Below are positions 16,553 through 61,420 of a DNA stretch of 64,000 nucleotides, one piece after another. A program made the translations under genes and the position numbers. The stretch is from Cetorhinus maximus (taxonomy: Eukaryota): positions 57,784,001 through 57,848,000 of the forward strand of contig NC_135885.1 of NCBI RefSeq assembly GCF_964194155.1, given 5' to 3'. The notes below the pieces were generated by a model that saw nothing but the letters and a program-made list of their open reading frames with translations, was not told the DNA's origin and did not search any database. Positions within the stretch are counted from its first letter, which is position 1, and each line of letters opens with the position of its first letter.

Positions 16553-16840
16553 ATAAAAAAAAATACGAAACACTCAGCAGGTCAGGCAACATCTGTGGAG
16601 AGAGAAGCAGAGTTAGCTTTTTAGGACAATTACTTTTCATCAGAACTGGAAGATGTTAGAGATGAACAGTCTTAAAGTAAGTGCAAAGCTCAGTAAAAGG
16701 AAGGGAGGTATAGAAAAAGTATGTGAAAGTGTGGAGAGCAGGAGTGATAAAATTACAAAAAGAGTGATGGCACAAGGCATAAGAGGATGGTAATGGGACA
16801 AGTAAAGAAACAAAGGATGGATCTAGTGGAAGAGTAAATA
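16553..16840 (-). mobile_element. PLE terminal-repeat fragment with a degenerate hammerhead
   Basis: actcagcaggtc.ggca.catctgtggagaga core is shared with 38160-38200; minus strand CCAGTT-CTGATGA is intact at 16637-16649, but stem II and GAAA are decayed. Confidence 0.75.
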
Positions 16841-21140: not shown

Positions 21141-24007
21141 GGCCAGGATTTTCCATGCCCGCCAGCATTAGGTATGTTCAGTGGCGTGAGTGGAAAATAT
21201 GGCTGATGGCAGGCTGCGTTTTCTGCCATCGGATGTCAGGAACTTCATTGTAATGCATTAGCATATCATTATTCAGCCTGCCCTCTGGAATCGTTACCCC
21301 CTCGCTGGATCGTCTGCCCACATCAGCGGGAAAACACGCCAGTGTAGAACACATCTTGACAAGTGTGACGTGCAGAAGTCAGGACTTACCTACCAGGGCC
21401 TTGCTCACATCGTGGACATCTAAGTAGCAAAAGATGCTGGAGCCCAAAAGCAATGGCATACTGGAGGAAAGTCTATGGCATGCTGGGTAGATTCTCATGG
21501 ACATGGCTCTGCTGCGAAGCAGTTCACGGAAGTGGATAGTCACTGTTGAGGGTCTGCTCACAGCGGATGATGGTCAAGGGGGTGGGAGAGGAAGAGGTGT
21601 CGGGGGGGTAAGGTTGGGAGGGGGGGAATGAAGCTGTCAGGGCGAGGTTGGGGGGTAGGGAGAACGGGGGAGGAGGGCATATCGGGGGAGAAGACAGAAA
21701 CTGGGGAGCTAGGTGTGAAGAGGGGTGGAAGGTATAAGGGAAGTAGTGCGGAGATGCAACGGTGTCCGGGGAGGAGGATGGAGTCAGGAAGGGGATAGGA
21801 GTAAGGCTGGAGGAAGGGGTCGGAGAGGGGGACTAAGCGGGTGGGGGAGGGAGGGAAGACCAGTGGGGGGCTTGGGAGGACTGTGGGGCAGGGGGGTGCA
21901 GGGAAGGGGTGTGAAGGGGGGAAAGGTTGCAGAGAGGAGAGATGTGCAGGCGAACATGCACTGGAAGGCTCGGATAGGTCCATGTCTACCTCCTGAGGAG
22001 CAAACAGGGTGGGTGTGGTACAGAGGAAGGGTGAGAATGACCAAGGGCTGAGTGAGGGGGTAAGGGGGGTGGGGGGTGAAGGTTCAACAATAGGGATAGA
22101 GAGGACGTTGAGGGTGCTTAGTGGGGACATGGAGGTAGACACAGACCCTGGGGATGGGAAGGAGGTGGTCAGGGACCTGGATGGGGGTGCAATTTTCAGG
22201 AAGGAAGGGGACGTGCACATTCACCTCGATAACCCCGAAGGAAAAGGGTTGTGGCTGGAGGTCACAGAGGGGAGGTGGAAGGTGATGCCCGGGGTGGGGG
22301 GGTCAACTGTGATGAGGGAAAGGAAATGAGTGACTGGGGGTGGGGAAAAGATGGGGGAGCGCACAATACAATGAAACCAGACCATGCTTGCTAAATCGAA
22401 AGCGAAACAAGAGTCATGGGCGAAATCAGATGTTGCATGGGTGTGTGATCATTGGATGGGCGGAAATGTAGGCCAGCTCGGTGGACAACTGAAAGAGAAC
22501 CCCAGAAGGCAGCATTCAAAATGTTCGGGACATTGAGAAACTAGAAGGATTCACTTGCGTGTGAGAGCGCTTGCACAAGGCTCCAAAAGGCCCAGCCCCA
22601 CACACACTTTTCCCTCCAGAATCAGTCATGGGCCAGCTGCTCTCTCTGCGGTGACAGAAGGATGAGGTTGAGCAGGTCACAGGCAAAGGGCACTTGGAGG
22701 GAGAGGACAGCCTCTCAGATTCCTCAGTGAATGACTCGGGCAACCAGTGTCGCTCCTCCTCCCTTCGGGTGCTCGAGGTGCCCCGTTTCCCTCTCACGTT
22801 GCCAACACAGGAACCCATCCATAGTTACCACGTTGGAGTGCAAGTCTGAGCGCATCTCTGCATTCTGCTGGACCAGGGTCTCCTTGGTGTCCGCCATCCT
22901 CCCCATGGAGACTCTCATGCACGCACATGTGGGCACCACTGCATCAGAGACCAGGCAGGCGCACTCCTCCAACTCACATGCCACTCTGTTGAGGGCTTTC
23001 AACAGCTCTGCATGATGTTCCCCACCTTCTGCTGACTCTACAGGATGAGTTGGAAGCCAAATACAGAGGTTCATTATCTGACTCGGACCTCACAGATGCC
23101 TCCTCCCCAACAGTCCTCCGACTGCTGGGGAGCTCGGCTGAACAAGCCTCCTCTTGCTGCAAACGCGTACCTGTGTGGTGACCACCGGATTGTGAACCAG
23201 AGCCTGCTCTAGATCTAGGTCCCACCAGGGCGTATGTCTCTGGAGGTTCAGGGCGTTGATAAGCACTGTGACAGGTCTTCCGGGCTTTTCCACCTTTTCA
23301 CTGGAGGAAGTGTCCTCTTGGCTGCAGATGAGGACCTGGATGGAGCTGAGCTCCAGAGCATAAGAGCCTGATGGAGATGCAAGGGTGTGTGTGAGAGTTA
23401 GTGGCGTGGTCCCTTGAGGTGTGAGATCCCTGTGGATGTGTGGTGGATTTGAGTGTGTGTGAGTTGAGAGTGATGAGAAGACTGAGTTACCATGGCAGAA
23501 CGGATGAGACCTTTCAGCCTGTAGTGGCACTGGGTGGCTGTCCTCTTTTGCAGGGCATTGGTGCTGACTGCTGCTTACATCGCCTGCCATGCTGGATTGA
23601 TGATGCCCCTTCCCATCTTGTGGTCAAAGCGGGGGTAGCGGACATCACAGCAGGCCTCCATGGCTTCCAACTGGCATTCCAGTGACGCGTCATTAAACCT
23701 GGGGGCTGCAGTCTTATTGCCTTTCGTGGGCATACTCCCTGCAGTAGTCGCGGGTTGAAGCGCTGAGATATGTGCACGCAGCTGGACTTTAAATATGGCG
23801 CCCGGCGTGCTGAAGCGGTGAGGTGATGGCATTGCGAGTGATTGAGAGCCCGCCAGCCATGGAAACGCTGTGTTTCCTAGGAACGCATAAGTAATGCGGC
23901 GGGTTTCAGACAATACGGCATGAAAATCTGCCATTGTGCCTGGCCGGTAAAACTCATTTTACCCATCCGCTACTGCACTTATTGCAAATCTGGAGTGATT
24001 CCGCCCC
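21141..24007 (-). mobile_element. Non-autonomous Harbinger derivative retaining only the Myb/SANT-like gene
   Basis: Imperfect TIRs GGCCAGGATTTTCC / GGGGCGGAATCACTCC; right end followed by TAA; no transposase motifs seen. Confidence 0.75.
23491..23733 (-). pseudogene. Myb/SANT-like DNA-binding domain exon of the Harbinger derivative
   Basis: MPTKGNKTAAPRFNDASLE...AWQAM*AAVSTNALQKRTATQCHYRLKGL, followed by a GTAACT donor; one in-frame stop. Confidence 0.8.
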
Positions 24008-36918: not shown

Positions 36919-38201
36919 ATAAAGCACATGGACCATCACAATACTTCAAGTCACACGTGAAGCACCTATTAACTGTTTCTTTGGCATTCTTGGGATTTAT
37001 TCGCCTATTATTGCTGTTCCAATTTTGTCTTCTGCTGTAATAGCCAGATGTTTTAAAGGCACTTTCATCCTTATTCAGTCTGTCTTTAATCCTTCCATTA
37101 ACATTGAAGCCTGCTTCCAGTAACTGGACCATTTTGATATGATAATAGAGTCCTCTATTTTTTGTGTCACCATGAAATATCCCATTTGTTCCAAGAAGGC
37201 TGAAAGAAATGACTGTTTCTCCAAGATTTTGTTTTAAGGCAGCAACGTCTAATCCAACAGGATCTCCCTCATCAAGAACCAAACACCAGTGAGAGCCAGG
37301 AGTCTTTCCATATGAGACAGCTTAGTGCAATCCAGCAATTTAAATACCCCAAATTGAATTTTGTCAATCTTTTATGCAATCTGTTAAAGTCCATGATAGA
37401 TTTCAGAAAACATAGAGGAATGTGAGTTTGACTATACTTCAGACATTTGTCATATCTTTCTTGCAAAATTCATTCAGGAACCCTAAGAGTTATCCAACTG
37501 ACAGGTGTCCAGCTCAAAAAATATATCACTCTGATTTTACTTCTGTTAGGAAGTGACAGCACCAAGGTATACCTGTTTCCTCTTTGGTAAGGATATAACT
37601 CATCCACATATCCACTGGTCATATGGTTCAGACTCCACGAACATGGGAGGATAATCATACCCTGTCAATTTACACTTACTTTCTTCCATTTTTCAAAATG
37701 GCTACAAGGATTGTAATTTTCTGCCAGAAAATTCTTTTCTTAGCTTCCAACCTTCATTTTTAGGCAACCATCCTCTGTTACTATGTTGTACTCCAGAAAG
37801 CCAGTTTGTGTAAGATAGAACTGGAGCCAATCTTTTACACACTTTAATATTTATTTACAGATTTACACATTACAAACATATGCCTCCTAACCACAGTTTT
37901 AGCTTGTGTCTATTTATAGGTATTCAAATGAATTCCCAGTTAATACCCACCAAATGCATGCAATTCAATACAATTAACACTGACTGTCCACAAAAGTGCT
38001 TTAATTTTGAGACCAGATCCTACTCTTACACTACTCAGCAACCTTTGCCTGTACAGACACGTAACAATATCCCACCAAGCAGAAGCGATGCTTGAGATAA
38101 AAGCAAAAAGCTAAAAGCTACTGCGAATGCTGGAAATCCAAAACAAAAACAGAATTACCTGGAAAAACTCAGCAGGTCTGGCAGCATTGGTGGAGAAGAA
38201 A

Positions 38202-38244
38202 TCAGTTAACGTTTCGAGTCTTCACGACCCTTCGGCAGAACTGA
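38202..38244 (-). ncRNA. Minimal type I hammerhead ribozyme (variant core) in the PLE terminal repeat
   Basis: UCAGUU-CUGCCGA-A-GGGUC GUGAA GACUC-GAA-ACGU-U-AACUGA: 6-bp stem I, 5-bp stem II, palindromic ACGU in place of stem III. Confidence 0.75.
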
Positions 38245-38609
38245 GTATAGTTAGGAGAAAGGTGAAATATAAGCTGGTCTAAGATGGGGGGGCGGGGGGA
38301 GAGAGAAGTTGAGGGTGTAGTGATTGTGGAGATAAGCAAGCAGTGATAGGAGCAGATAATCAAAAGATGTCACAAACAAAAGGATCAAAGAGGTGTTGAA
38401 GGTGGTGATATTGTCTAAGAAAAGTGCTAATTAAGAATGGAAGACAGGATACTCAAGGTACAGCTCTAGTGGGGGTGGGGTGGAAAGACTAACAAAGTTT
38501 TAGTTTTAGATTTAAAAATAACGGAAATAGGTGGGAAAAGAAGAATCTATATAAATTATTGAAAAAAGGGAGGGGGGAGAAACGGGGTGGGGATGGGGGG
38601 AGGGGGAGT

Positions 38610-41362
38610 TTAAGATCTAAAGTTGTTGAATTCAATATTCAGCCCGGAAGGCTGTAAAGTGCCTAGTCGGAAGATGAGGTGCTGTTCCTCCAGTTTGCGT
38701 TGGGCTTCACTGGAACAATGCAGCAAGCCAAGGACAGACATGTGGGCAAGAGAACAGGGTGGAGTGTTAAAATGGCAAGCGACAGGGAGGTTTGGGTCTT
38801 TCTTACGGACAGACCGCAGGTGTTCTGCAAAGCGGTCGCCCAGTTTGCGTTTGGTCTCTCCAATGTAGAGGAGACCACATTGGGAGCAACGAATGCAGTA
38901 GACTAAGTTAGGGGAAATGCAAGTGAAATGCTGCTTCACTTGAAAGGAGTGTTTGGCCCTTGGACGGTGAGGAGAGAGGAAGTGAAGGGGCAGGTGTTGC
39001 ATCTTCTGCGTGGGCATGGGGAGGTGCCATAGGTGGGGGTTGAGGAGTAGGGGGTGATGGAGGAGTGGACCAGGGTGTCACGGAGGGGACGATCCCTACG
39101 GAATGCCGTCAGGGGGGGTGAAGGGAAGATGTATTTAGTGGTGGCATCATGCTGGAGTTGGCGGAAATGGCGGAGGATGATCCTTTGAATGCGGAGGCTG
39201 GTGGGGTGATAAGTGAGGACAAGGGGGACCCTATCATGTTTCTGGGAAGGAGGAGAAGGCGTGAGGGAGGATGCGCGGGATATGGGCCGGACACGGTTGA
39301 GGGGCCTGTCAACGACCGTGGGTGGAAAACCTCGGTTAAGGAAGAAGGAGGACATGTCAGAGGAGCTGTTTTTGAAGGTAGCGTCATCAGAACAGATGCG
39401 ACGGAAGCGAAGGAACTGAGAGAATGGGATGGAGTCCTTACAGGAAGCGGGGTGTGAGGAGCTGTAGTCGTGGTAGCTGTGGGAGTCGGTAGGCTTGTAA
39501 TGGATATTGGTGGACAGTCTATCATCAGAAATTGAGACAGAGAGGTCAAGGAAGGGAAGAGAAGTGTCAGAGATGGACCATGTGAAAATGATGGAGGGGT
39601 GGAGATTGGAAGCAAAATTAATAAATTTTTCCAGGTCCCGACGAGAGCATGAAGCAGCACCAAAGTAATCATCGATGTACCGGAGAAAGAGTTGTGGGAG
39701 GGGGCCGGAGTAGGACTGGAACAAGGAATGTTCCACATACCCCATAAAGAGACAGGCATAACTGGGGCCCATGCGGGTACCCATAGCTACACCTTTTATT
39801 TGGAGGAAGTGAGAGGAGTTAAAGGAGAAATTGTTCAGTGTGAGAACAAATTCAGCCAGACGGAGGAGAGTAGTGGTGGATGGGGATTGTTCGGGCTTCT
39901 GTTCAAGGAAGAAGCTAAGGGCCCTCAGACCATCCTGGTGGGGGATGGAGGTGTAGAGGGATTGGACATCCATGGTGAAGAGGAAGCGGTTGGGGCCAGG
40001 GAACTGGAAATTGTTGATGTGACGTAAGGTGTCAGAGGAATCACGGATGTAGGTGGGAAGGGACTGGACAAGGGGAGAGAGAAGGGAGTCAAGATAACGA
40101 GAAATGAGTTCCATGGGGCAGGAACAGGCTGACATGATCGGTCTGCCAGGACAGTTCTGTTTGTGGATTTTGGGTAGGAGGTAGAAGCGGGCCGTCTGAG
40201 GTTGGGCGACTATCAAGTTGGAAGCTGTGGGAGGAAGATCTCCAGAGGAGATGAGGTCAGTGACAGTCCTGGAAACAATGGCTTGATGTTCTGTGGTGGG
40301 GTCATGGTCCAGGGAGAGGTAGGAGGAAGTGTCTGCGAGTTGACACTCAGCCTCCGCGAGGTAGAGGTCAATGCGCCAGACAACAACAGTACCACCCTTG
40401 TCAGCGGGTTTGATGACAATGTTGGGGTTGGACCTGAGAGAACGGAGTGCAGTGAGTTCAGAGAGAGACAGATTAGAATGGGTGAGAGGAGCAGAGAAAT
40501 TGAGACGGCTAATGTCACACCGACAGTTCTCAATGAAAAGATCAAGAGAAGGTAAGAATCCAGAGGGAGGGGTCCAGGTGGAGGGAGAATATTGGAGGTG
40601 GGTAAAAGGATCCGTTGAACGGGGAGAGGATTCCTGCCCAAAGAAGTGAGCACGGAGACGAAGACAGCGGAAGAAGAGTTCAGCATCATGCCGAGCCCGA
40701 AATTCATTGAGATGAGGGCGTAAGGGCATGAAACTAAGTCCTTTGCTGAGCACTGAACGTTCAGCATCGGAGAGGGGAAGGTCAGGGGGTATAGTGAATA
40801 CGTGGCTGGGGCTGGGATTGGAAGATGGGGTGGGGACGGAGAGACAAGCAGGGGTGGAGGGTCCCAGATGGGTGTTGGTGTCGATGAGTTGTTGGAGCTT
40901 GCGTTCCTTAGCACTTAAGAGAAAGAGAAAAAGTTTCTTGTTGAGGCGACGGATGAGGCGAAGAATAAAATGAAACTGGGGGCACGCGCAGCTTTGAGAA
41001 AGGGTGCGGCGGTGCTGCTGGAGGGAGAGGTCGAGTGTGTTCATATGGCGGCGCATGGCACTGAGTGTGGATCTCAGAATGCGACGGGAACAGCAGTCCG
41101 AGAAACGTTTTATGTCCCGGAGATACCTGTAATCCTGGGTGGGTTTGAAACAAGAGGGATGGAATTTCAGTTGAAATCCACGTGGGGTGAGTCGGAGACG
41201 GAGACAGTCACTGAGAAAGGAGATATGGCTGTGAAAGCGGGTTTTAGTAAACACCTTGTCAAACACCAGGAGAGAAATGGAAAGCAATGAAGGTGAGCAG
41301 GGCAGAAGAGACAGGCGGAAATCCTGTCGGAGAACAGAACCATACTTCTTCAGAGAGGACAT
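38610..41362 (-). CDS. PLE reverse transcriptase-GIY-YIG endonuclease, one frameshift near 38956
   Basis: Motifs IKPADKG, LPKIHK, DVQSLYTSIP, GVAMG, RYIDD; Cys linker CPRRRCNTC; then NLVYCIRC..C...YIGET...RFAEH in the next frame. Confidence 0.92.
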
Positions 41363-41958
41363 TTCTTGAAGAGAGGTGGCAGTCAATTAAACACAGAGAT
41401 AAAAACAAAAAGCTAAAAGCTACTGCGGATGCTGGAAATCCAAAACAAAACGATGCATGAGATGTTTCCTTGATGTCCTAATCTTTTGTCCAACTCTATC
41501 TTACAGGCTTGTCATTGTTATTGCTTATCTGTAAGCCTATGGTTCTTTACGTTTTGGTATAATACAAGCCCCCCTTTGCTCTTAGATGTTAAGTATGTGG
41601 GTCTCCTAGGCTTTTGAGTTCAATATTGAAAGTTTTTTTCCTCTTATTCATGTTCCATACTTTCTATTAACTCCACAGAGTCATGGCATCTTCTTCTCAA
41701 AATTCTCAGATTTTGATTCAGAAAGCTTTTATGATTAGGAAATCAGATCATTAACTGTGACCAGGAGAAAGTGTCATGCAACATAAGCAATAAAAAAAGG
41801 TGATCTTTTTGTTTGAAGATTCCAAAGTACATTAGTAAAATTCCAACTGTGTCACAATGTGGAATAAAATATTAAATATCGCAAAATCACAGAAAATTGT
41901 ATTTAGAAGCATAGATGTTTACAGCAAAGAAAAATACAATTCAGGGCATCATGTTTGG

Positions 41959-53356: not shown

Positions 53357-56300
53357 AGTGTGTTTATTTTTCCCAAAGATTACTGTTAAAATTAGTACAA
53401 TGAGAGATTTTTATTATCAGAGAGGTAAAGTCCAAAGACATAGTGAAACAATGGGAATTTGCATTCAAAGGGGAAAATATGTATAAAGGAGCAAAGGTTG
53501 TGTGTAAGGGGAGGCATTTTAAGATCTCAAGTGTGAAAAGCCTTCAGCATCTACGCCTCAAGCTGCTGCCTACAAAGAACTGAAGTTAAGCAAACTCACT
53601 TCGAATTGGATTGTTCAGGGTATTGTGTTCTTTGCCTCTTTTAAAATCCATGTGTCTTACTGTTGCCTTAATGAAAATGTATCTGGGAGTTAGAACAATT
53701 AGGGGATTGAGAAGTTATCATAGTAGTAATTTGTAGATCTATGTATTTAAAATCATTTCTTCTATTAATAAAGGTTCAATTTAGTTTTGTAAGAAACCTA
53801 TAAGATTTGGTGGTCTTATTACTACTGAATTCAAGGCATGCATCTCGAAATTTACACAAATTGCAAAACAAGTTGTGGCAGTTGTTTCAAGTTTCCCTTT
53901 GGGATTTGGGCAGCTCAGCATTTACCATCGGCTGTGCCATAACAAAGTTGAGAGCTCTTTGTGGGATATATTTGAAATTCCTTGATTGGGTTGGAGTTGG
54001 TGAATCTTAAGGTTACAAGTATGAGAAGCACTTTGAATTCAGGAGTTGGTCTGAGGTTTTTTGAAGTGGTGAGACTGCAATATGGCTTTGGCCGTTGAAG
54101 TTATAACTTTGGCTGGTTTACAAAAGGCAACTAAAGTTAATCTTATGGAACTGGCAGATATGATACAATTGAGATCACCTGCATGGGGTAAGAAAGCAGA
54201 CATAATTGAAGGTATAGCAGAGCATTTCAAGTTAGAAGTGATACCTGACACTAGTGAGTCACAGCTAGAGTTAGTGAGACGTCAGTTAGAAATGAAGAAG
54301 CTTGAACTTGAACGAGCGAAGGAAATGAAAAAAACTTGAGCTAGAGGCAGCAGAAAAGGAAAGGGCAGAAAAAGAAAAAGGAAGGGTATTTCAAAGGGAG
54401 CAAGCAGAAAGGCAGGAGAAAGAAAAGAAGCTGGAACTTGAATTCCAGGCAAGAGAAAAGGATAAAGAAAGAGAAGCAAGGGAAAGAGAGAAGGAACGAG
54501 AAAGGGCATACCAGCTTAAAAGACTGGAAGTTTAAAAGGAGATCTCAGGTTCTGAGGAAAGTTCTGATGATGAAAAAACCTTTCACCTAAAATCGAGTGG
54601 GGAAATGCTTAAATTTGTACAAGCTCTTCCAAAGTTTGAGGAAAGAGATGTGGAAGCATTCTTTATTTCATTTGAGAAGCTAGCTAAACAGATGAAATGG
54701 CCACAGGAAAACTAGACATTGTTGTTACAATCCAGATTGGTGGGTAGAGCACATGAGATTTATGCTTCATTGTCAGAAGAACTGTCGGTAAACTATGACA
54801 TGGTAAAAAAGGCTATTTTGAGTGCATAGGAGTTGGTTCCTGAGGCATGCAGGCAGAAATTTAGGAATATGTGAAAAGAGCCTGGCAAACTTATATTGAG
54901 TCTGAAGGAGTAAAACAAAGTAATTTTGACCGGTGGATACAGGCATTAAAGATGAGACAACATATGCAGTTCTTAGAGAGGTAATTCTTTTGGAAGAATT
55001 TAAAGGTTCAATTTCTTTGGTGAGTGAGAACACATGTGGAAGAACAGAGGGTTCAAATGGTAAGACAATCAGCAGAAATAGCTGATGATTATGAGTTAGT
55101 TCATAGAGCTAAACCTTATTTTGTCACCCTATTAAATCAGAAACGGATAGAAAGTGGGAAGGTGAAAGGGAGGTGGGTAGTTAGGGAAGAGAAGGAGTAA
55201 GTAGAAATTTTCAGGAAGTTTTTTTTCAGAATAAACAGGAAGGTGCTGAGGGTAGAAGAGACATTTGAAAATTGAGATGTTTTCATTGTAATAAAGTTGG
55301 ACATATGAAATCTGTATGCTGGAAATTGCAGGGAAAATCTATTGAAATTATAGGGGTACAGAAAAGTTCTGGAAGTAAAAGTATCGTGGGTTCTAAGGTT
55401 CAGGCAAAGGAAAAAAATAGTGGTTTATGTACAGGTAAAACAGGGGGTATCAGTGATAGGTAAAGAAGTGGAAATGTGTTCACAATTTACCCAAGAGAAT
55501 TCGCAGAAGCAGCTTACAGAAATGTTTAGAGATTTTGTGTGTGAAGGAAAAGTATTTCCATGTGTACAGGGCGGAGTAGGTAAAGATGTTTAAATTTTAA
55601 GAGACAGAAGGGCTAGTCAATCCTTAATGTTGTGGGATAGTGACATTTGTTGTTCAGTGGGAGTATTGTAGGAACAGGTGATAATAAGTGGAGTTCATAG
55701 AGATGCTAAACCTAATCCATTGTGGGAGGTAAATTTAAAGAGTAAGTGGAAAACAGGTGACGTGATTGTTGGAGTCGCGGAAAGATTGCCCATTTCAGGG
55801 GTTCAATTTATTCTGGGTAATGATATAGCTGGGTCCCAGGTGTGGGTGATGCCTTTGGTGGTTGAACAGCCTGTTGAAGTGTTTTCAACAGAAGTGTTGC
55901 AGAGAGAGCATCCTGGATTGTTTCCAGGTTGTGCGATATTGAGAACACAGGCTCATAGGTTGAAACAAGAAGAACAGGAATTTCAAAGGCAGGGGGAAGG
56001 TGTGGAAATCCAATTAGCTGACACTGTGTTTGATAAGGTTGTTCAGGAAGAAAGACTGGAAGACAATTCAGCTGACATGTTTAACTCAAGGCGGTTAGTG
56101 GAGTTACAGAAGAAAAAGGACTTGCAAATAAAACATTTATATCTGCCAGCCTACTCAGAAACAGAGGTAAAATGTATTCCAGAATATTATTACCTTAAGG
56201 GTAATGCTTCAATGAGAAAATGGAGGCCGTATCATGTTTCAGCAAATGAAAGCTGGAGGGAGGTGTATCAGATTGTAATACCATTATAGAAATGAGATTC

Positions 56301-58886
56301 TGAGGATAACTCTTGAAATTCCAATGGGGGGACATTTAGGAATTAAAAAGACACAGGCGAAGATACAAAAACATTTTTTTGGCGTGGATTGCTTAGGGAT
56401 GTAGTCAAGTGCTGTAGAACGTCACACATGTCAGGTGATAGGGAGACTACAAGCAGTGATTAAGCCAGCACCTTTAATTCCAATTCCAGCATTTGAAGAA
56501 CCTTTTACTAGGGTCATGATTGATTGTGTAGGACACCTCCCTAAGACGAAAAGTGGAAATCAGTACTTACTAACAATAACGGATGTGTCTACCAGGTTTC
56601 CTGAAGCAATAGGCTTTGAGAAATATTACAACAAAGAAAATTGTGGAAGAGTTAACTAAATCTTTTACAAGATATGGTTTACTTAAGTAAATGCAATTAG
56701 ATCAGGGTTCAAATTTCATGTTACAGCTGCTTAAGGAAGTAATGAACAGTTTGGGGATAAAACAGTTTGAGTCAACAGCTTACCATCCTGAGTCACAAGG
56801 GGCTTTGGAAAGATGGCATCAAACTCTAAAAACTATGATGAAGCTGTATAGTTATGATTATCCACAGGATTGTGATGGGGGATTCCATTCTTGTCATTTG
56901 CCATTAGGGACGGTCCTAATAAATCAACTGGTTTTAGTCCTTTTGAAGTAGTTTATGGTCATGAGATAAGAGGACTACTGAAATTGGTTAATGAGAAATT
57001 GGTGGGTCAAAATTCAGAAACTACTCTCCTGGGTTACGTATCAAACTTCAGACAGAGATTGGGCAGAACATGTGAGTTGGCTAGAGAACACTTAATGATA
57101 TCACAGCAAGTGATAAAAATGAAAGCAGGCAGGAAAGCTACAGCTCGTAGTTTTGTTACTGGGGAGAAAGTGCTAGTTCTGTTACCACCACTGGGTAACC
57201 CATTAAAGGCAAGGTTTAGAGGGCCTTACAGGATTGAAAAGAAGCTGAGTGAAGTGAATTATTTAATAAATACTCCAGATAGAAGAAAGAAGCAGAGGGT
57301 GTGTCATGAAAATATGCTTAAAAAGTACTTTGACGGGGAAGAGGACCAATATGTGTTAGTGGTGGTAGATAATGAGAAAGAAGTAGAAATGCAGGATTCT
57401 GAAAATGATTTTCCTCTAATCAAATTGGATAATGAGGCAGTACTTGAAAATTTAAATGTAAAATTGAGTTACCTTTCAGACAAGGGTCAAAGTGATTTAG
57501 AAAAGCTATTGCGGTCACACAAGGGTACTTGTGGAAATAAGTTGGGAAGGACAAATTTAGCTATACATATTGTATCTGTACAAGTTTCATCTTCGCTAAG
57601 GCAACATCCTTATAGAATAAATCAGGCAAAGTTATCACAAGTACAGAAAGAAATCAAATTCATGCTTCAATGTGTATCATTGAGTCTAGTTGCATAAACT
57701 GGAGCTCGTCTCTTGTGCCGATACCGAAACTGGATGAAACACAGAGACTGTTTGTGAACTATCGAAAGGTGAATGCGGTGGCAAAAGTGGATTCATATCC
57801 TATACCATGGTTGGAAGACTGTATTGAGAAAGTGGGACAATCAAAATTTATCACAAAGATTGACTTGCTAAAAAGGATATTGACAAGTACCATTATCAGA
57901 GAGAGCTAAGGAGGTATCAACTTTTGTGATGCCAGATGGACTATATCAGTTTAAAGTCATGTCGTTTGGTATGAAAAACGTACCAGCAACATTTCAAAGA
58001 CTGACAAAGTAATTGCAGGTCTGACCAATGGTGCTGGTTATATTGACGACTTGATAGTTTCCAGTCAGACGTGGGAGGAGCATTTACAACATCTGGAAGA
58101 ATTATTTATTCTATTACAAGAAGCTAATTTGGTGGTGAACTTGGCTAAAAGTAAATTTCCAAAAGCGCAAGTTATGTATCTAGTCCATACCATTGGACAT
58201 GGTAAGGTGGCTCCGAGAGATGTAAAAATCAAGACTATTGTGGATTTCCCCGCGCCTACAACAAAACGAGGAGTTGAGATTTCTGGGCATGAGTGGGTTT
58301 TATCAGATTTTGTACCAAATTTTAGCAGTGTGGTTGCTCCATTGATTGAAACTTCTTATTCTTTTTTAATAATTCAATGGACACTGGAGTGTCAGAAGGC
58401 ATTTGACAGTTTGAAAACTTTATTAACTACTACACCAGTTTCGGCCATGCCCACTTATGCCAAGCAATTTAAGTCGGCCATTGACTCAAGTGATATAGGC
58501 ATTGGGACCGTACAGGAAGATGACCCTGCAGTTGAAAACCCGATTGGGTATTTTTCACAAAGTTGAATGTACAACAGAAAAGATATTCAATGCTTGAAAA
58601 GAAGACTTTGGGTCTGGTGTTATCATTGCAGCATTTGAAATTTACGTTGCAAACAATTCATCAGAAACAATTGTTCATAGAAACCACAATCCTTTAAAGT
58701 TTCTGGACAAATTTCGAGACAGAAGTGCAAGGCTATTCAGATGGAGTTTATTACTACAACCATTTAATCTACAGATTATACATGTAGTGGGGCAAGAAAA
58801 TCCAATTGCAGATGCGCTGTCAGGAGCTTGAAGCTTAAAGAGAAAATTGGACATTTAAAACATGGACACTGGACTGGAATGATTTC

Positions 58887-59589: not shown

Positions 59590-59676
59590 ACTTCTGTTGA
59601 TACCAATTTATATATATTGTTATTATGTTAATGCATGCATCTGATAAAGTAATAGTGTAATAAGTATAAGAGTTAT

Positions 59677-60458
59677 TGATAAGTGTGAGGTGATGCATTT
59701 TGGGAGGACTAACATGGCCAGGGAAATCAGAATGCATGGTAGGTCCCTAGGAAGTACAGAGGACCAGAGGGACCTTGGTGTACATGTCCATCGATCCCTG
59801 AAGGCAGCAGCACAGATAGGTAAGGTGGTTAAGAAGGCATATGGGATACTTGCCTTTATTAGCCGAGGCATAGAATATAAAAGCAGGGAGGTTATGTTGG
59901 AGCTGTATAAAACGCTAGTTAGGTCACAGCTGGAGTACTGTGTGCAGTTCTGGTCACCACACTATAGGAAGGATGTGATTGCATTGGAGAGGGTGCGGAG
60001 AAGATTCATCAGGATATTGCCTGGGCTGGAGCATTTCAGCTATGAAGATAGGCTAGGGTTGTTTTCCTTAGAGCAGAAAAGGCTGAGGGTGAACCTGATA
60101 GAGATATGCAAACTTATGAGGGGTATAGATAGGGTGGGTTGGAAAAAACGTTCCCCCTCAGTAGAAGTGTCAATAACCAGGGGGCATAGATTTAAGGTAA
60201 GGGGCAGGAGGTTTAGAGGGGATTTGAGGAAAGCATTTTTCACCCAGAGGGTGGTTAGAATCTGGAACACATTGCCTGAGGGGGTGGTAGAGGCAGGAAC
60301 CCTCACAACTAGTATTTAGATGAGCACTCTAAACACCATAGCATACTGGGCTATGGGACAAGTGCTGGAAAATGGGATTAGACTTGATAGGTGTTTGATG
60401 GCCGGCACAGACACGATGGGCCAAAGGACCAGTTTCTGTGCTGTATAACTCTGACTCT
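59677..60458 (+). mobile_element. CR1 LINE 3' end replacing most of the Gypsy 3' LTR
   Basis: 209-aa ORF with DLGV, LYKTLVRSQLEYCVQFWSP and TRGH motifs, then a CR1 3' UTR. Confidence 0.93.
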
Positions 60459-61251: not shown

Positions 61252-61420
61252 AACAAAAACAAAAACAAAAATACCTGGAAAAACTCAGCAGGTCTGGCAG
61301 CATCTGCGGTGATGTTAACTGTGTTTCTCTCCGCAGATGCTGCCAGACCTGCTGAGTTTTTCCAGGTGTTTTTGTTTTTGTTTTGGATTTCCAGCATCCG
61401 CAGTTCTTTGCTTCTATCTG
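61252..61420. mobile_element. Fold-back PLE terminal-repeat insertion with a 10-bp TSD
   Basis: GCAATGAAAA at 61242-61251 and 61421-61430; arms 61256-61309 and 61331-61384. Confidence 0.9.

What the first reader, a model, noticed from the sequence alone, without database searches (positions are those of the whole stretch)
38202..38244. Dimer-type minimal hammerhead ribozyme with a variant core in a young Penelope-like element
Seen: the element's sense (minus) strand, about 370 nt after the GIY-YIG stop, reads UCAGUU CUGCCGA A GGGUC-GUGAA-GACUC GAA ACGU U^AACUGA. Stems I and II pair fully, and stem III is reduced to the palindrome ACGU. Known: PLE terminal repeats carry minimal type I hammerheads that complete stem III by dimerising. 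Unusual here: the conserved CUGANGA box reads CUGCCGA (A6 to C) with an extra A before stem II, while older copies at 16637 and 27322 keep CUGAUGA. Inference: either a subfamily-wide tolerated variant or a copy-specific inactivating change.
Basis: partly seen in the sequence, partly recalled or inferred. Interest (0 to 1): 0.72.

Follow-up and report, generated by a model that had tools for sequence, protein, structure and literature searches.

The report
Altered-core hammerhead in thriving Penelope lineage
A jumping-gene lineage with over 40,000 motif copies in this vertebrate genome carries a small self-cutting-RNA motif in which one normally fixed core letter changed (A to U, then to C) and the lineage kept multiplying, so the cutting is likely weak or not needed for jumping, though cutting itself is untested.

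Summary
Observation confirmed: 38244-38202 (minus) is a minimal type I hammerhead in the 3' pseudo-LTR of a Neptune-type Penelope-like element. The extra A before stem II is the published consensus, not a novelty. CUGCCGA is not copy-specific: one 35-nt pattern finds 43,308 pyrimidine-6 and 6,292 purine-6 motifs genome-wide. An ORF tree orders the subfamilies A6, U6, C6, the C6 ones youngest. After losing A6, the other 15 core letters stayed fixed and one stem II pair switched U-A to C-G (6,845 matches), but formal covariation is weak. Copies show no pile-up of 5' ends at the predicted cut, nor does a mixed A6/U6 control. A6C is known from one phage ribozyme, where it slows cleavage. Best reading: a likely weakened, protein-assisted ribozyme that insertion does not depend on; cleavage is untested. 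This scan noted the same variant before in this genome (e1-9834341) and the U6 form in another genome (e1-9904347). The key paper on PLE hammerhead variants (Lunse 2017) could not be read. New variant of a known kind; interest 0.47.

The parts
38202..38244 (-). Minimal type I hammerhead motif with C at core position 6
   Evidence: Sequence; pair counts across 13 subfamily representatives
38232..38238 (-). Core box CUGCCGA; C6 at 38235 replaces the consensus A6, C7 at 38234
   Evidence: lineage-wide
38231..38231 (-). Extra A between positions 9 and 10.1 (ordinary in PLE minimal hammerheads)
   Evidence: PMC4209133
38216..38230 (-). Stem II (5 pairs, one G-U) and 5-nt loop II
   Evidence: 100% of cells paired in 13 representatives; one pair U-A / U-G / C-G
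38207..38215 (-). GAA, palindromic ACGU (stem III would form only between two copies), U17; predicted cut between 38208 and 38207
   Evidence: Sequence; cut site inferred from hammerhead numbering, not observed
38094..38609 (-). 3' UTR and 3' pseudo-LTR that hold the motif; copies end about 113 nt past the predicted cut
38610..38945 (-). GIY-YIG endonuclease region, in another frame than the RT (this copy is frameshifted near 38936-38945)
   Evidence: ORF list; Pfam PF01541 E 2e-5
38936..41362 (-). Reverse transcriptase ORF with DKG motif and a CX4CxxC linker (Neptune-type)
   Evidence: Pfam PF00078 E 4e-7; linker definition in PMC8557442 passages
41396..41450 (-). 5'-truncated upstream pseudo-LTR; begins 59 nt after the cut position, so this copy has only one hammerhead
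41451..41456 (-). 6-bp direct repeat, also at 38086-38091; possible target-site duplication
   Evidence: Flanks printed; inference

Best explanation
This is the minimal hammerhead motif of a Neptune-type Penelope-like retrotransposon whose amplifying lineage replaced core A6 by U and later C and kept spreading, and the motif likely still works as a slow, dimer- and protein-assisted self-cleaver that insertion does not depend on. Shown: the motif and its host element; the lineage-wide pyrimidine at position 6; a ladder of subfamilies A6, U6, C6 with ORFs under purifying selection; paired stems and an otherwise fixed core; copies that read through an intact upstream motif. Inferred: tandem transcripts bring two motifs together so that the ACGU palindromes form stem III; the element's own RT-endonuclease protein assists folding as reported for the anole element; loss of A6 lowers the rate; reverse transcription starts about 113 nt downstream of the cut on mostly uncut RNA, so slow cleavage costs the element little. 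This window copy itself has one motif and a frameshift and is likely inert.
For: Lineage-wide: C6 10,909, U6 11,539, A6 564 in one 18-nt context; 43,308 pyrimidine-6 against 6,292 purine-6 with one 35-nt pattern. With the core left free, 100 of the first 100 listed of 41,539 matches have a pyrimidine at 6, and 80 of 100 are otherwise intact; 10 of the 20 deviants are only CpG transitions (my tally). ORF tree of 45 copies, built without the motif, separates A6/U6a from later U6 and C6 groups; copy-to-group distance falls from 3.1% (A6, 7 copies) through 1.5% (U6a, 3), 1.0% (U6c/C6a, 7), 0.9% (C6b/c, 21) to 0.5% (C6d-f, 6), and dN/dS is about 0.2. Stem II: 94 of 100 listed pyrimidine-6 motifs keep all three free pairs, 28 of them with C-G and 2 with U-G in place of U-A (my tally); with C on the 5' side, 99 of 100 listed have G opposite, none A; the switch arose on a branch with dS of only 0.021. 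0 of 15 other core columns vary among 7 pyrimidine-6 subfamilies against 13 of 34 upstream and 9 of 53 downstream columns (Fisher p 0.019). 13 of 30 copies that include the ORF start carry a whole upstream motif. Literature: natural A6C cleaves slowly but detectably (PMC3088659, PMC7151607); the anole PLE hammerhead cleaves only with the element's protein and is not needed for insertion in vitro (PMC11167929).
Against: No cleavage was observed or could be tested. No genomic cut footprint: 9 of 37 junctions in offsets -4..+2 fall at the cut (p 0.07), only 1 of 11 once inverted junctions are removed; the mixed A6/U6a control is flat too (4 of 24), so the test does not separate slow from dead. 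Covariation rests on one compensatory event and does not beat the shuffle control (35 of 500). At the synonymous distance between U6a and the youngest group (dS 0.164), 15 unchanged sites have a neutral probability of 0.085. The subfamilies were mostly collected by patterns that contain the core, which favours an invariant core; only one search is free of that. The outer two pairs of stem I are broken in several subfamilies. All CUGA-turn mutants had low activity and no second-site rescue in a mutational scan (PMC9901934 passages), and PLE minimal hammerheads are already poor cleavers with A6 (PMC4209133), so the sum may be no activity. U6a differs from its A6 sister only at position 6, with no compensating change.
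Confidence: 0.55

Rival explanations
1. The motif no longer cleaves; its fold is kept for another job, such as binding the RT-endonuclease protein or pairing two RNA copies.
For: Stem II stays paired while a core base was lost without compensation; no cut footprint; templates read through the motif; hammerhead mutants do not impair insertion in vitro (PMC11167929).
Against: A purely structural role does not explain why the catalytic G8 and G12, G5 and the A15.1-U16.1 pair stay fixed and position 17 alternates only between U and C, both cleavable, across 12 subfamilies; A6C retains measurable activity in two other hammerheads (PMC7151607).
Confidence: 0.25
2. The motif is vestigial and decaying neutrally; too little time has passed since A6 was lost for more damage to fix.
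For: Neutral probability of no change in 15 core sites is 0.085 at dS 0.164; covariation is not significant against shuffles; whole PLE clades lack canonical hammerheads (PMC8557442 passages).
Against: Both partners of one stem II pair changed to a new Watson-Crick pair on a branch with dS 0.021, through a U-G intermediate, with the C-A intermediate absent from 100 listed matches; loop II changed at 4 of 5 columns and the upstream flank at 13 of 34 while the core changed at 0 of 15.
Confidence: 0.12
3. The variant is fully active in vivo, gated by a cofactor such as Mn2+ or the element's protein, and was favoured because it delays cleavage until the RNA is bound.
For: A6C leaves fast cleavage in Mn2+ while suppressing it in Mg2+ (PMC7151607); pyrimidine-6 motifs outnumber purine-6 about 7 to 1.
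Against: The first change was to U, for which I found no data; copy counts favour young families because strict patterns miss decayed old copies; no cut footprint; cellular Mn2+ is far below Mg2+ (stated in PMC7151607).
Confidence: 0.08

Closest known systems
Minimal type I hammerheads (min-HHR) in pseudo-LTRs of metazoan Penelope-like elements (Cervera and De la Pena 2014, PMC4209133)
   Same: Position in the pseudo-LTR, type I topology, no stem III but a palindrome at 15.2-16.2, extra base between 9 and 10.1, G10.1-C11.1 pair, U-rich upstream flank, thousands of dispersed copies.
   Different: Position 6 is C or U. All 44 rows of Fig. S3 that I saw have A6, none is a cartilaginous fish, and the consensus is CUGANGAH; the core variant named in the text I read is U3-A8.
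Natural A6C hammerhead of phage Bcep176 (Perreault 2011, PMC3088659; Naghdi 2020, PMC7151607)
   Same: The same core substitution; slow in Mg2+ (kobs under 0.1 per min), better in Mn2+.
   Different: A single phage ribozyme tested on its own; here the change sits in a minimal, dimer-type motif, came through U6, and is carried by tens of thousands of retrotransposon copies.
Hammerhead of the anole Poseidon element PAc (Frangieh 2024, PMC11167929)
   Same: Pseudo-LTR hammerhead; copies end downstream of the motif; no RNA or DNA ends seen at the cut; uncut RNA serves as template.
   Different: PAc is Poseidon-clade and its ORF starts inside the motif; no A6 change is mentioned in the text I read; its protein-assisted cleavage was shown at the bench, here it is inferred.

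Membership tests
PLE minimal type I hammerhead | Lies in the pseudo-LTR of a Penelope-like element | tested here: met
   RT and GIY-YIG Pfam hits; partial-tandem and inverted structures in sister copies
PLE minimal type I hammerhead | Stems I and II around the core, type I topology | tested here: met
   Stem II 100% and inner four stem I pairs 100% paired in 13 representatives
PLE minimal type I hammerhead | Palindromic 15.1-16.1 segment instead of stem III, and NUH cleavage triplet | tested here: met
   ACGU in 12 of 12 subfamily majorities; position 17 is U or C
PLE minimal type I hammerhead | Extra base between 9 and 10.1; G10.1-C11.1 pair | tested here: met
   PMC4209133
Hammerhead ribozyme, consensus core | CUGANGA box with A6 | tested here: not met
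   C6 in this copy and C6 or U6 throughout the lineage; so it is a core variant, not a consensus member
Hammerhead ribozyme, consensus core | C3-G8 pair, G5, A9, G12, A13, A14, A15.1-U16.1 | tested here: met
   Invariant in subfamily majorities; 80 of 100 copies intact with the core left free
Hammerhead ribozyme, consensus core | Site-specific self-cleavage after N17 | not testable with these tools
   Only assembled contigs were offered, no raw RNA reads; genomic 5'-end test inconclusive
PLE minimal type I hammerhead | Cleaves as a dimer | tested here: inconclusive
   Two-copy folding prefers strand-swapped stems I and II and does not show the ACGU stem III; energy models do not cover the core
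Rfam hammerhead families | Match to a covariance model | tested here: not met
   No hammerhead family among 9 matches at E <= 10 in the window
Neptune-type PLE | [quoted passage not shown] | tested here: met
   CX4CxxC in the translation; definition in PMC8557442 passages, which gives the linker to Neptune and Nematis
Neptune-type PLE | RT phylogeny places it with Neptune | not tested
   No tree against reference PLE proteins was built

The most novel reading that the evidence does not exclude
A vertebrate retrotransposon lineage was selected to detune its own ribozyme: A6 to U to C gates cleavage on a cofactor or on the element's protein, spares the template RNA, and helped the pyrimidine-6 families replace the consensus-core ones. 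The A6, U6 and C6 sister motifs, one pair of which differs at this base alone, would be a natural allelic series for the open question of what hammerheads do in Penelope elements, and such motifs are a large class that CUGANGA-based searches miss.
Probability: 0.17. Interest if true: 0.75.

Novelty: new variant of a known kind. Interest (0 to 1): 0.47.

Why it matters
The role of hammerheads in Penelope-like elements is described as unclear (PMC8557442 passage). Here a lineage changed a near-invariant core base and went on to produce most of the intact motifs of this family in the genome, which shows that a consensus core is not needed for spread while the fold seems still to be kept. Subfamilies A6b and U6a differ in the motif only at position 6, so a direct rate comparison is easy. 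Searches that require CUGANGA would miss these 43,000 motifs.

Tried and rejected
Copy-specific inactivating mutation: rejected. Extra A as a novelty: rejected. 27322 as an older copy: rejected. Cut-site footprint in DNA: none of 30 ORF-start copies begins at the cut; junction offsets flat in the pyrimidine-6 set (71 junction copies of 98 rows; 27 rows with the motif body still present were dropped as point or indel mutants) and in the control (67 of 100 rows; 33 dropped); the control anchor turned out to hold U6a copies as well as A6 ones, so it is mixed. A first tree on pseudo-LTR flanks (145 of 228 copies) was noisy from inverted junctions and was replaced by the ORF tree; the pseudo-LTR divergence figures are affected in the same way and are not used for dating. 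RNA evidence: all 22 runs offered were contigs, so no RNA ends could be read; a second lay of further runs gave no result, which leaves A6/U6/C6 shares in those runs open. Rfam and folding z-scores gave no support. Literature searches for a prior description: hammerhead + Penelope (45 papers, 30 listed), A6C, hammerhead ribozyme + Neptune + shark (0), A6U (nothing relevant), Penelope + hammerhead + elasmobranch (0), Penelope-like + shark genome + Neptune (0). Lunse, Weinberg and Breaker 2017 (PMC5785218) is not held and may describe position-6 variants; supplement file 1 of PMC4209133 was not searchable and I saw only part 2 of 3 of file 2. An upstream-AUG explanation for A6 to U (the change removes an AUG) was considered and dropped, because later subfamilies gained an AUG in loop II.

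Full report
Observation. The predicted cut falls between 38208 and 38207. Rfam has no hammerhead match in the window and the isolated fold is no more stable than shuffles (z = -1.0), so the identification rests on core letters, topology and context.

Host element. The motif lies 366 nt after the stop of a GIY-YIG frame, behind an 808-residue reverse transcriptase frame. A CX4CxxC linker between the two marks a Neptune-type Penelope-like element (PMC8557442, passages; Nematis has it too, and no reference tree was built). The window is G000:C7:57784001-57848000 of a 4.0-Gb genome; that it is shark-like is my recall of the repeat, not a tool result. This copy spans 38094-41450, is frameshifted near 38940, and its upstream pseudo-LTR starts 59 nt after the cut position, so it has a single motif. 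It is likely inert; what matters is the lineage.

What is ordinary. Cervera and De la Pena (PMC4209133; read: parts 1-2 of 4 of the text, part 2 of 3 of supplement file 2) describe such motifs in PLE pseudo-LTRs, list the base between 9 and 10.1 and the palindrome as conserved, and give the consensus CUGANGAH. The extra A is therefore expected. All 44 rows of their Fig. S3 that I saw have A6.

The variant is lineage-wide. All 30 best-matching loci, the window's own included, have C6. In one 18-nt context the genome holds 10,909 C6, 11,539 U6 and 564 A6 matches. One 35-nt pattern for the whole motif gives 43,308 with a pyrimidine and 6,292 with a purine at position 6, reversed controls 0; strict patterns undercount old, decayed copies and miss families with other stem lengths. 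With stems fixed and the core free, 100 of the first 100 listed of 41,539 matches have a pyrimidine at 6; 80 are otherwise intact and 10 of the 20 deviants are only CpG transitions (my tally). Contigs of runs labelled organisms A, B and C show U6 (4 contigs each) and a contig of organism D shows C6 across the cut site (RNA status is a guess and the 85% likeness filter disfavours A6 relatives), so the variant is not confined to one species label.

History. A tree of 45 copies on the 3' 791 nt of the ORF, which excludes the motif, sets A6 and early U6 (U6a) copies apart from later U6 and C6 groups (two A6 copies sit among pyrimidine-6 ones). Distance of copies to their group majority falls in the order A6 3.1%, U6a 1.5%, U6c/C6a 1.0%, C6b/c 0.9%, C6d-f 0.5% (7, 3, 7, 21 and 6 copies; one copy unassigned; small groups bias low). 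dN/dS of about 0.2 shows that the masters stayed protein-coding under selection. The order A, U, C follows. U6a differs from its A6 sister in the motif only at position 6, so there was no compensating change.

Is the motif still under selection? Across 7 pyrimidine-6 subfamilies 0 of 15 other core columns vary, against 4 of 5 in loop II, 13 of 34 upstream and 9 of 53 downstream (Fisher p 0.019); the sampling favours an intact core. Stem II changes keep pairing: A-U, G-U, G-C at one pair and U-A, U-G, C-G at another. The C-G form has 6,845 matches, with G opposite C in 99 of 100 listed, and arose on a branch with dS 0.021. Position 17 moves only between U and C. Against this: it is one compensatory event, the covariation score is reached by 35 of 500 shuffles, 15 unchanged sites have a neutral probability of 0.085, 6 of 100 listed motifs have a broken stem II pair, and the outer two stem I pairs are often open. 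Selection on the fold is likely, not proven.

Does it cleave? Not testable here. A6C occurs naturally in phage Bcep176 with kobs under 0.1 per min (PMC3088659, passages) and shifts activity from Mg2+ to Mn2+ in two ribozymes (PMC7151607, parts 1-2 of 4). A mutational scan found low activity and no rescue for CUGA-turn mutants other than the C3-G8 swap (PMC9901934, passages). In the anole element the hammerhead cleaves only with the element's protein, mutants insert normally in vitro, and no RNA-seq ends map to the cut (PMC11167929, parts 1-2 of 4). The genome here agrees with an uncut template: 13 of 30 ORF-start copies carry a whole upstream motif and none starts at the cut. Following a lead from note e1-9886385, I mapped junctions near the cut: 9 of 37 at the cut in pyrimidine-6 families (p 0.07; 1 of 11 without inverted junctions) and 4 of 24 in a mixed A6/U6a control. 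There is no footprint in either, so the test cannot tell slow from dead.

Mechanism. Most likely (0.55) a weakened ribozyme that would fold as a dimer on tandem transcripts with help from the element's protein and would cut slowly, while reverse transcription starts downstream on uncut RNA. Rivals: dead catalyst kept as a structure (0.25), neutral vestige (0.12), cofactor-gated full activity (0.08).

Novelty. The motif class and the A6C change are each known; their combination in a dominant vertebrate PLE lineage I did not find in print, but Lunse et al. 2017 on PLE hammerhead variants was not available (title seen in reference lists only). Other papers seen as passages only, without bearing on position 6: PMC6765202, PMC6155905, PMC11014351, 10.64898/2026.07.22.740005. 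This scan recorded the same C6 variant on another piece of this genome and the U6 form in another genome. Verdict: real, new variant of a known kind, interest 0.47.

Noticed in passing
window 27341-27300 (minus); related copies in L045, L059, L172, L213: A second hammerhead-like repeat family: CUGAUGA, a one-pair stem II, and a 7-nt loop (27320-27314) exactly complementary to an upstream stretch (27341-27335), which suggests a pseudoknot; the window copy looks decayed after GAAA.
   Followed up: partly
window 38187-38158 (minus): A block of about 30 nt downstream of the cut is as conserved across the 12 subfamilies as the hammerhead core; it may pair with 38134-38122 (z -0.7) and ends in a sequence that resembles both a splice acceptor and a donor. 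Function unknown.
   Followed up: partly
L094, L098, L099, L101, L102 (element positions 2980-2997, equal to window about 38470-38454): 5 of 30 ORF-start copies have upstream pseudo-LTRs that begin within 18 nt of each other; possibly a transcription start or an alignment break at a C-rich run.
   Followed up: no
window 61278-61404: Head-to-head fold-back of an older pseudo-LTR end, joined close to the predicted cut; gives spurious Rfam hairpin hits. Such inversions are common among junction copies.
   Followed up: partly
window 21558-22220 (minus): A pyrimidine-rich open frame resembling the off-frame translation of the same PLE family, probably another fragment.
   Followed up: no
window 55672-58566 (plus): Broken frames that resemble an LTR retrotransposon pol (protease, integrase and RT-like stretches; resemblance recalled, not searched).
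   Followed up: no
window 59648-60319 (minus): 3' end of a CR1/L2-type LINE ORF (resemblance recalled, not searched).
   Followed up: no
G000:C1:1251169, 1611151/1613696, 5924667: Three insertion sites share a G-to-C change that breaks the ACGU palindrome; possibly a small subfamily with a damaged stem III.
   Followed up: no
L092:2504-3234: A 25-nt piece of the PLE ORF is amplified into a tandem array of about 30 units.
   Followed up: no
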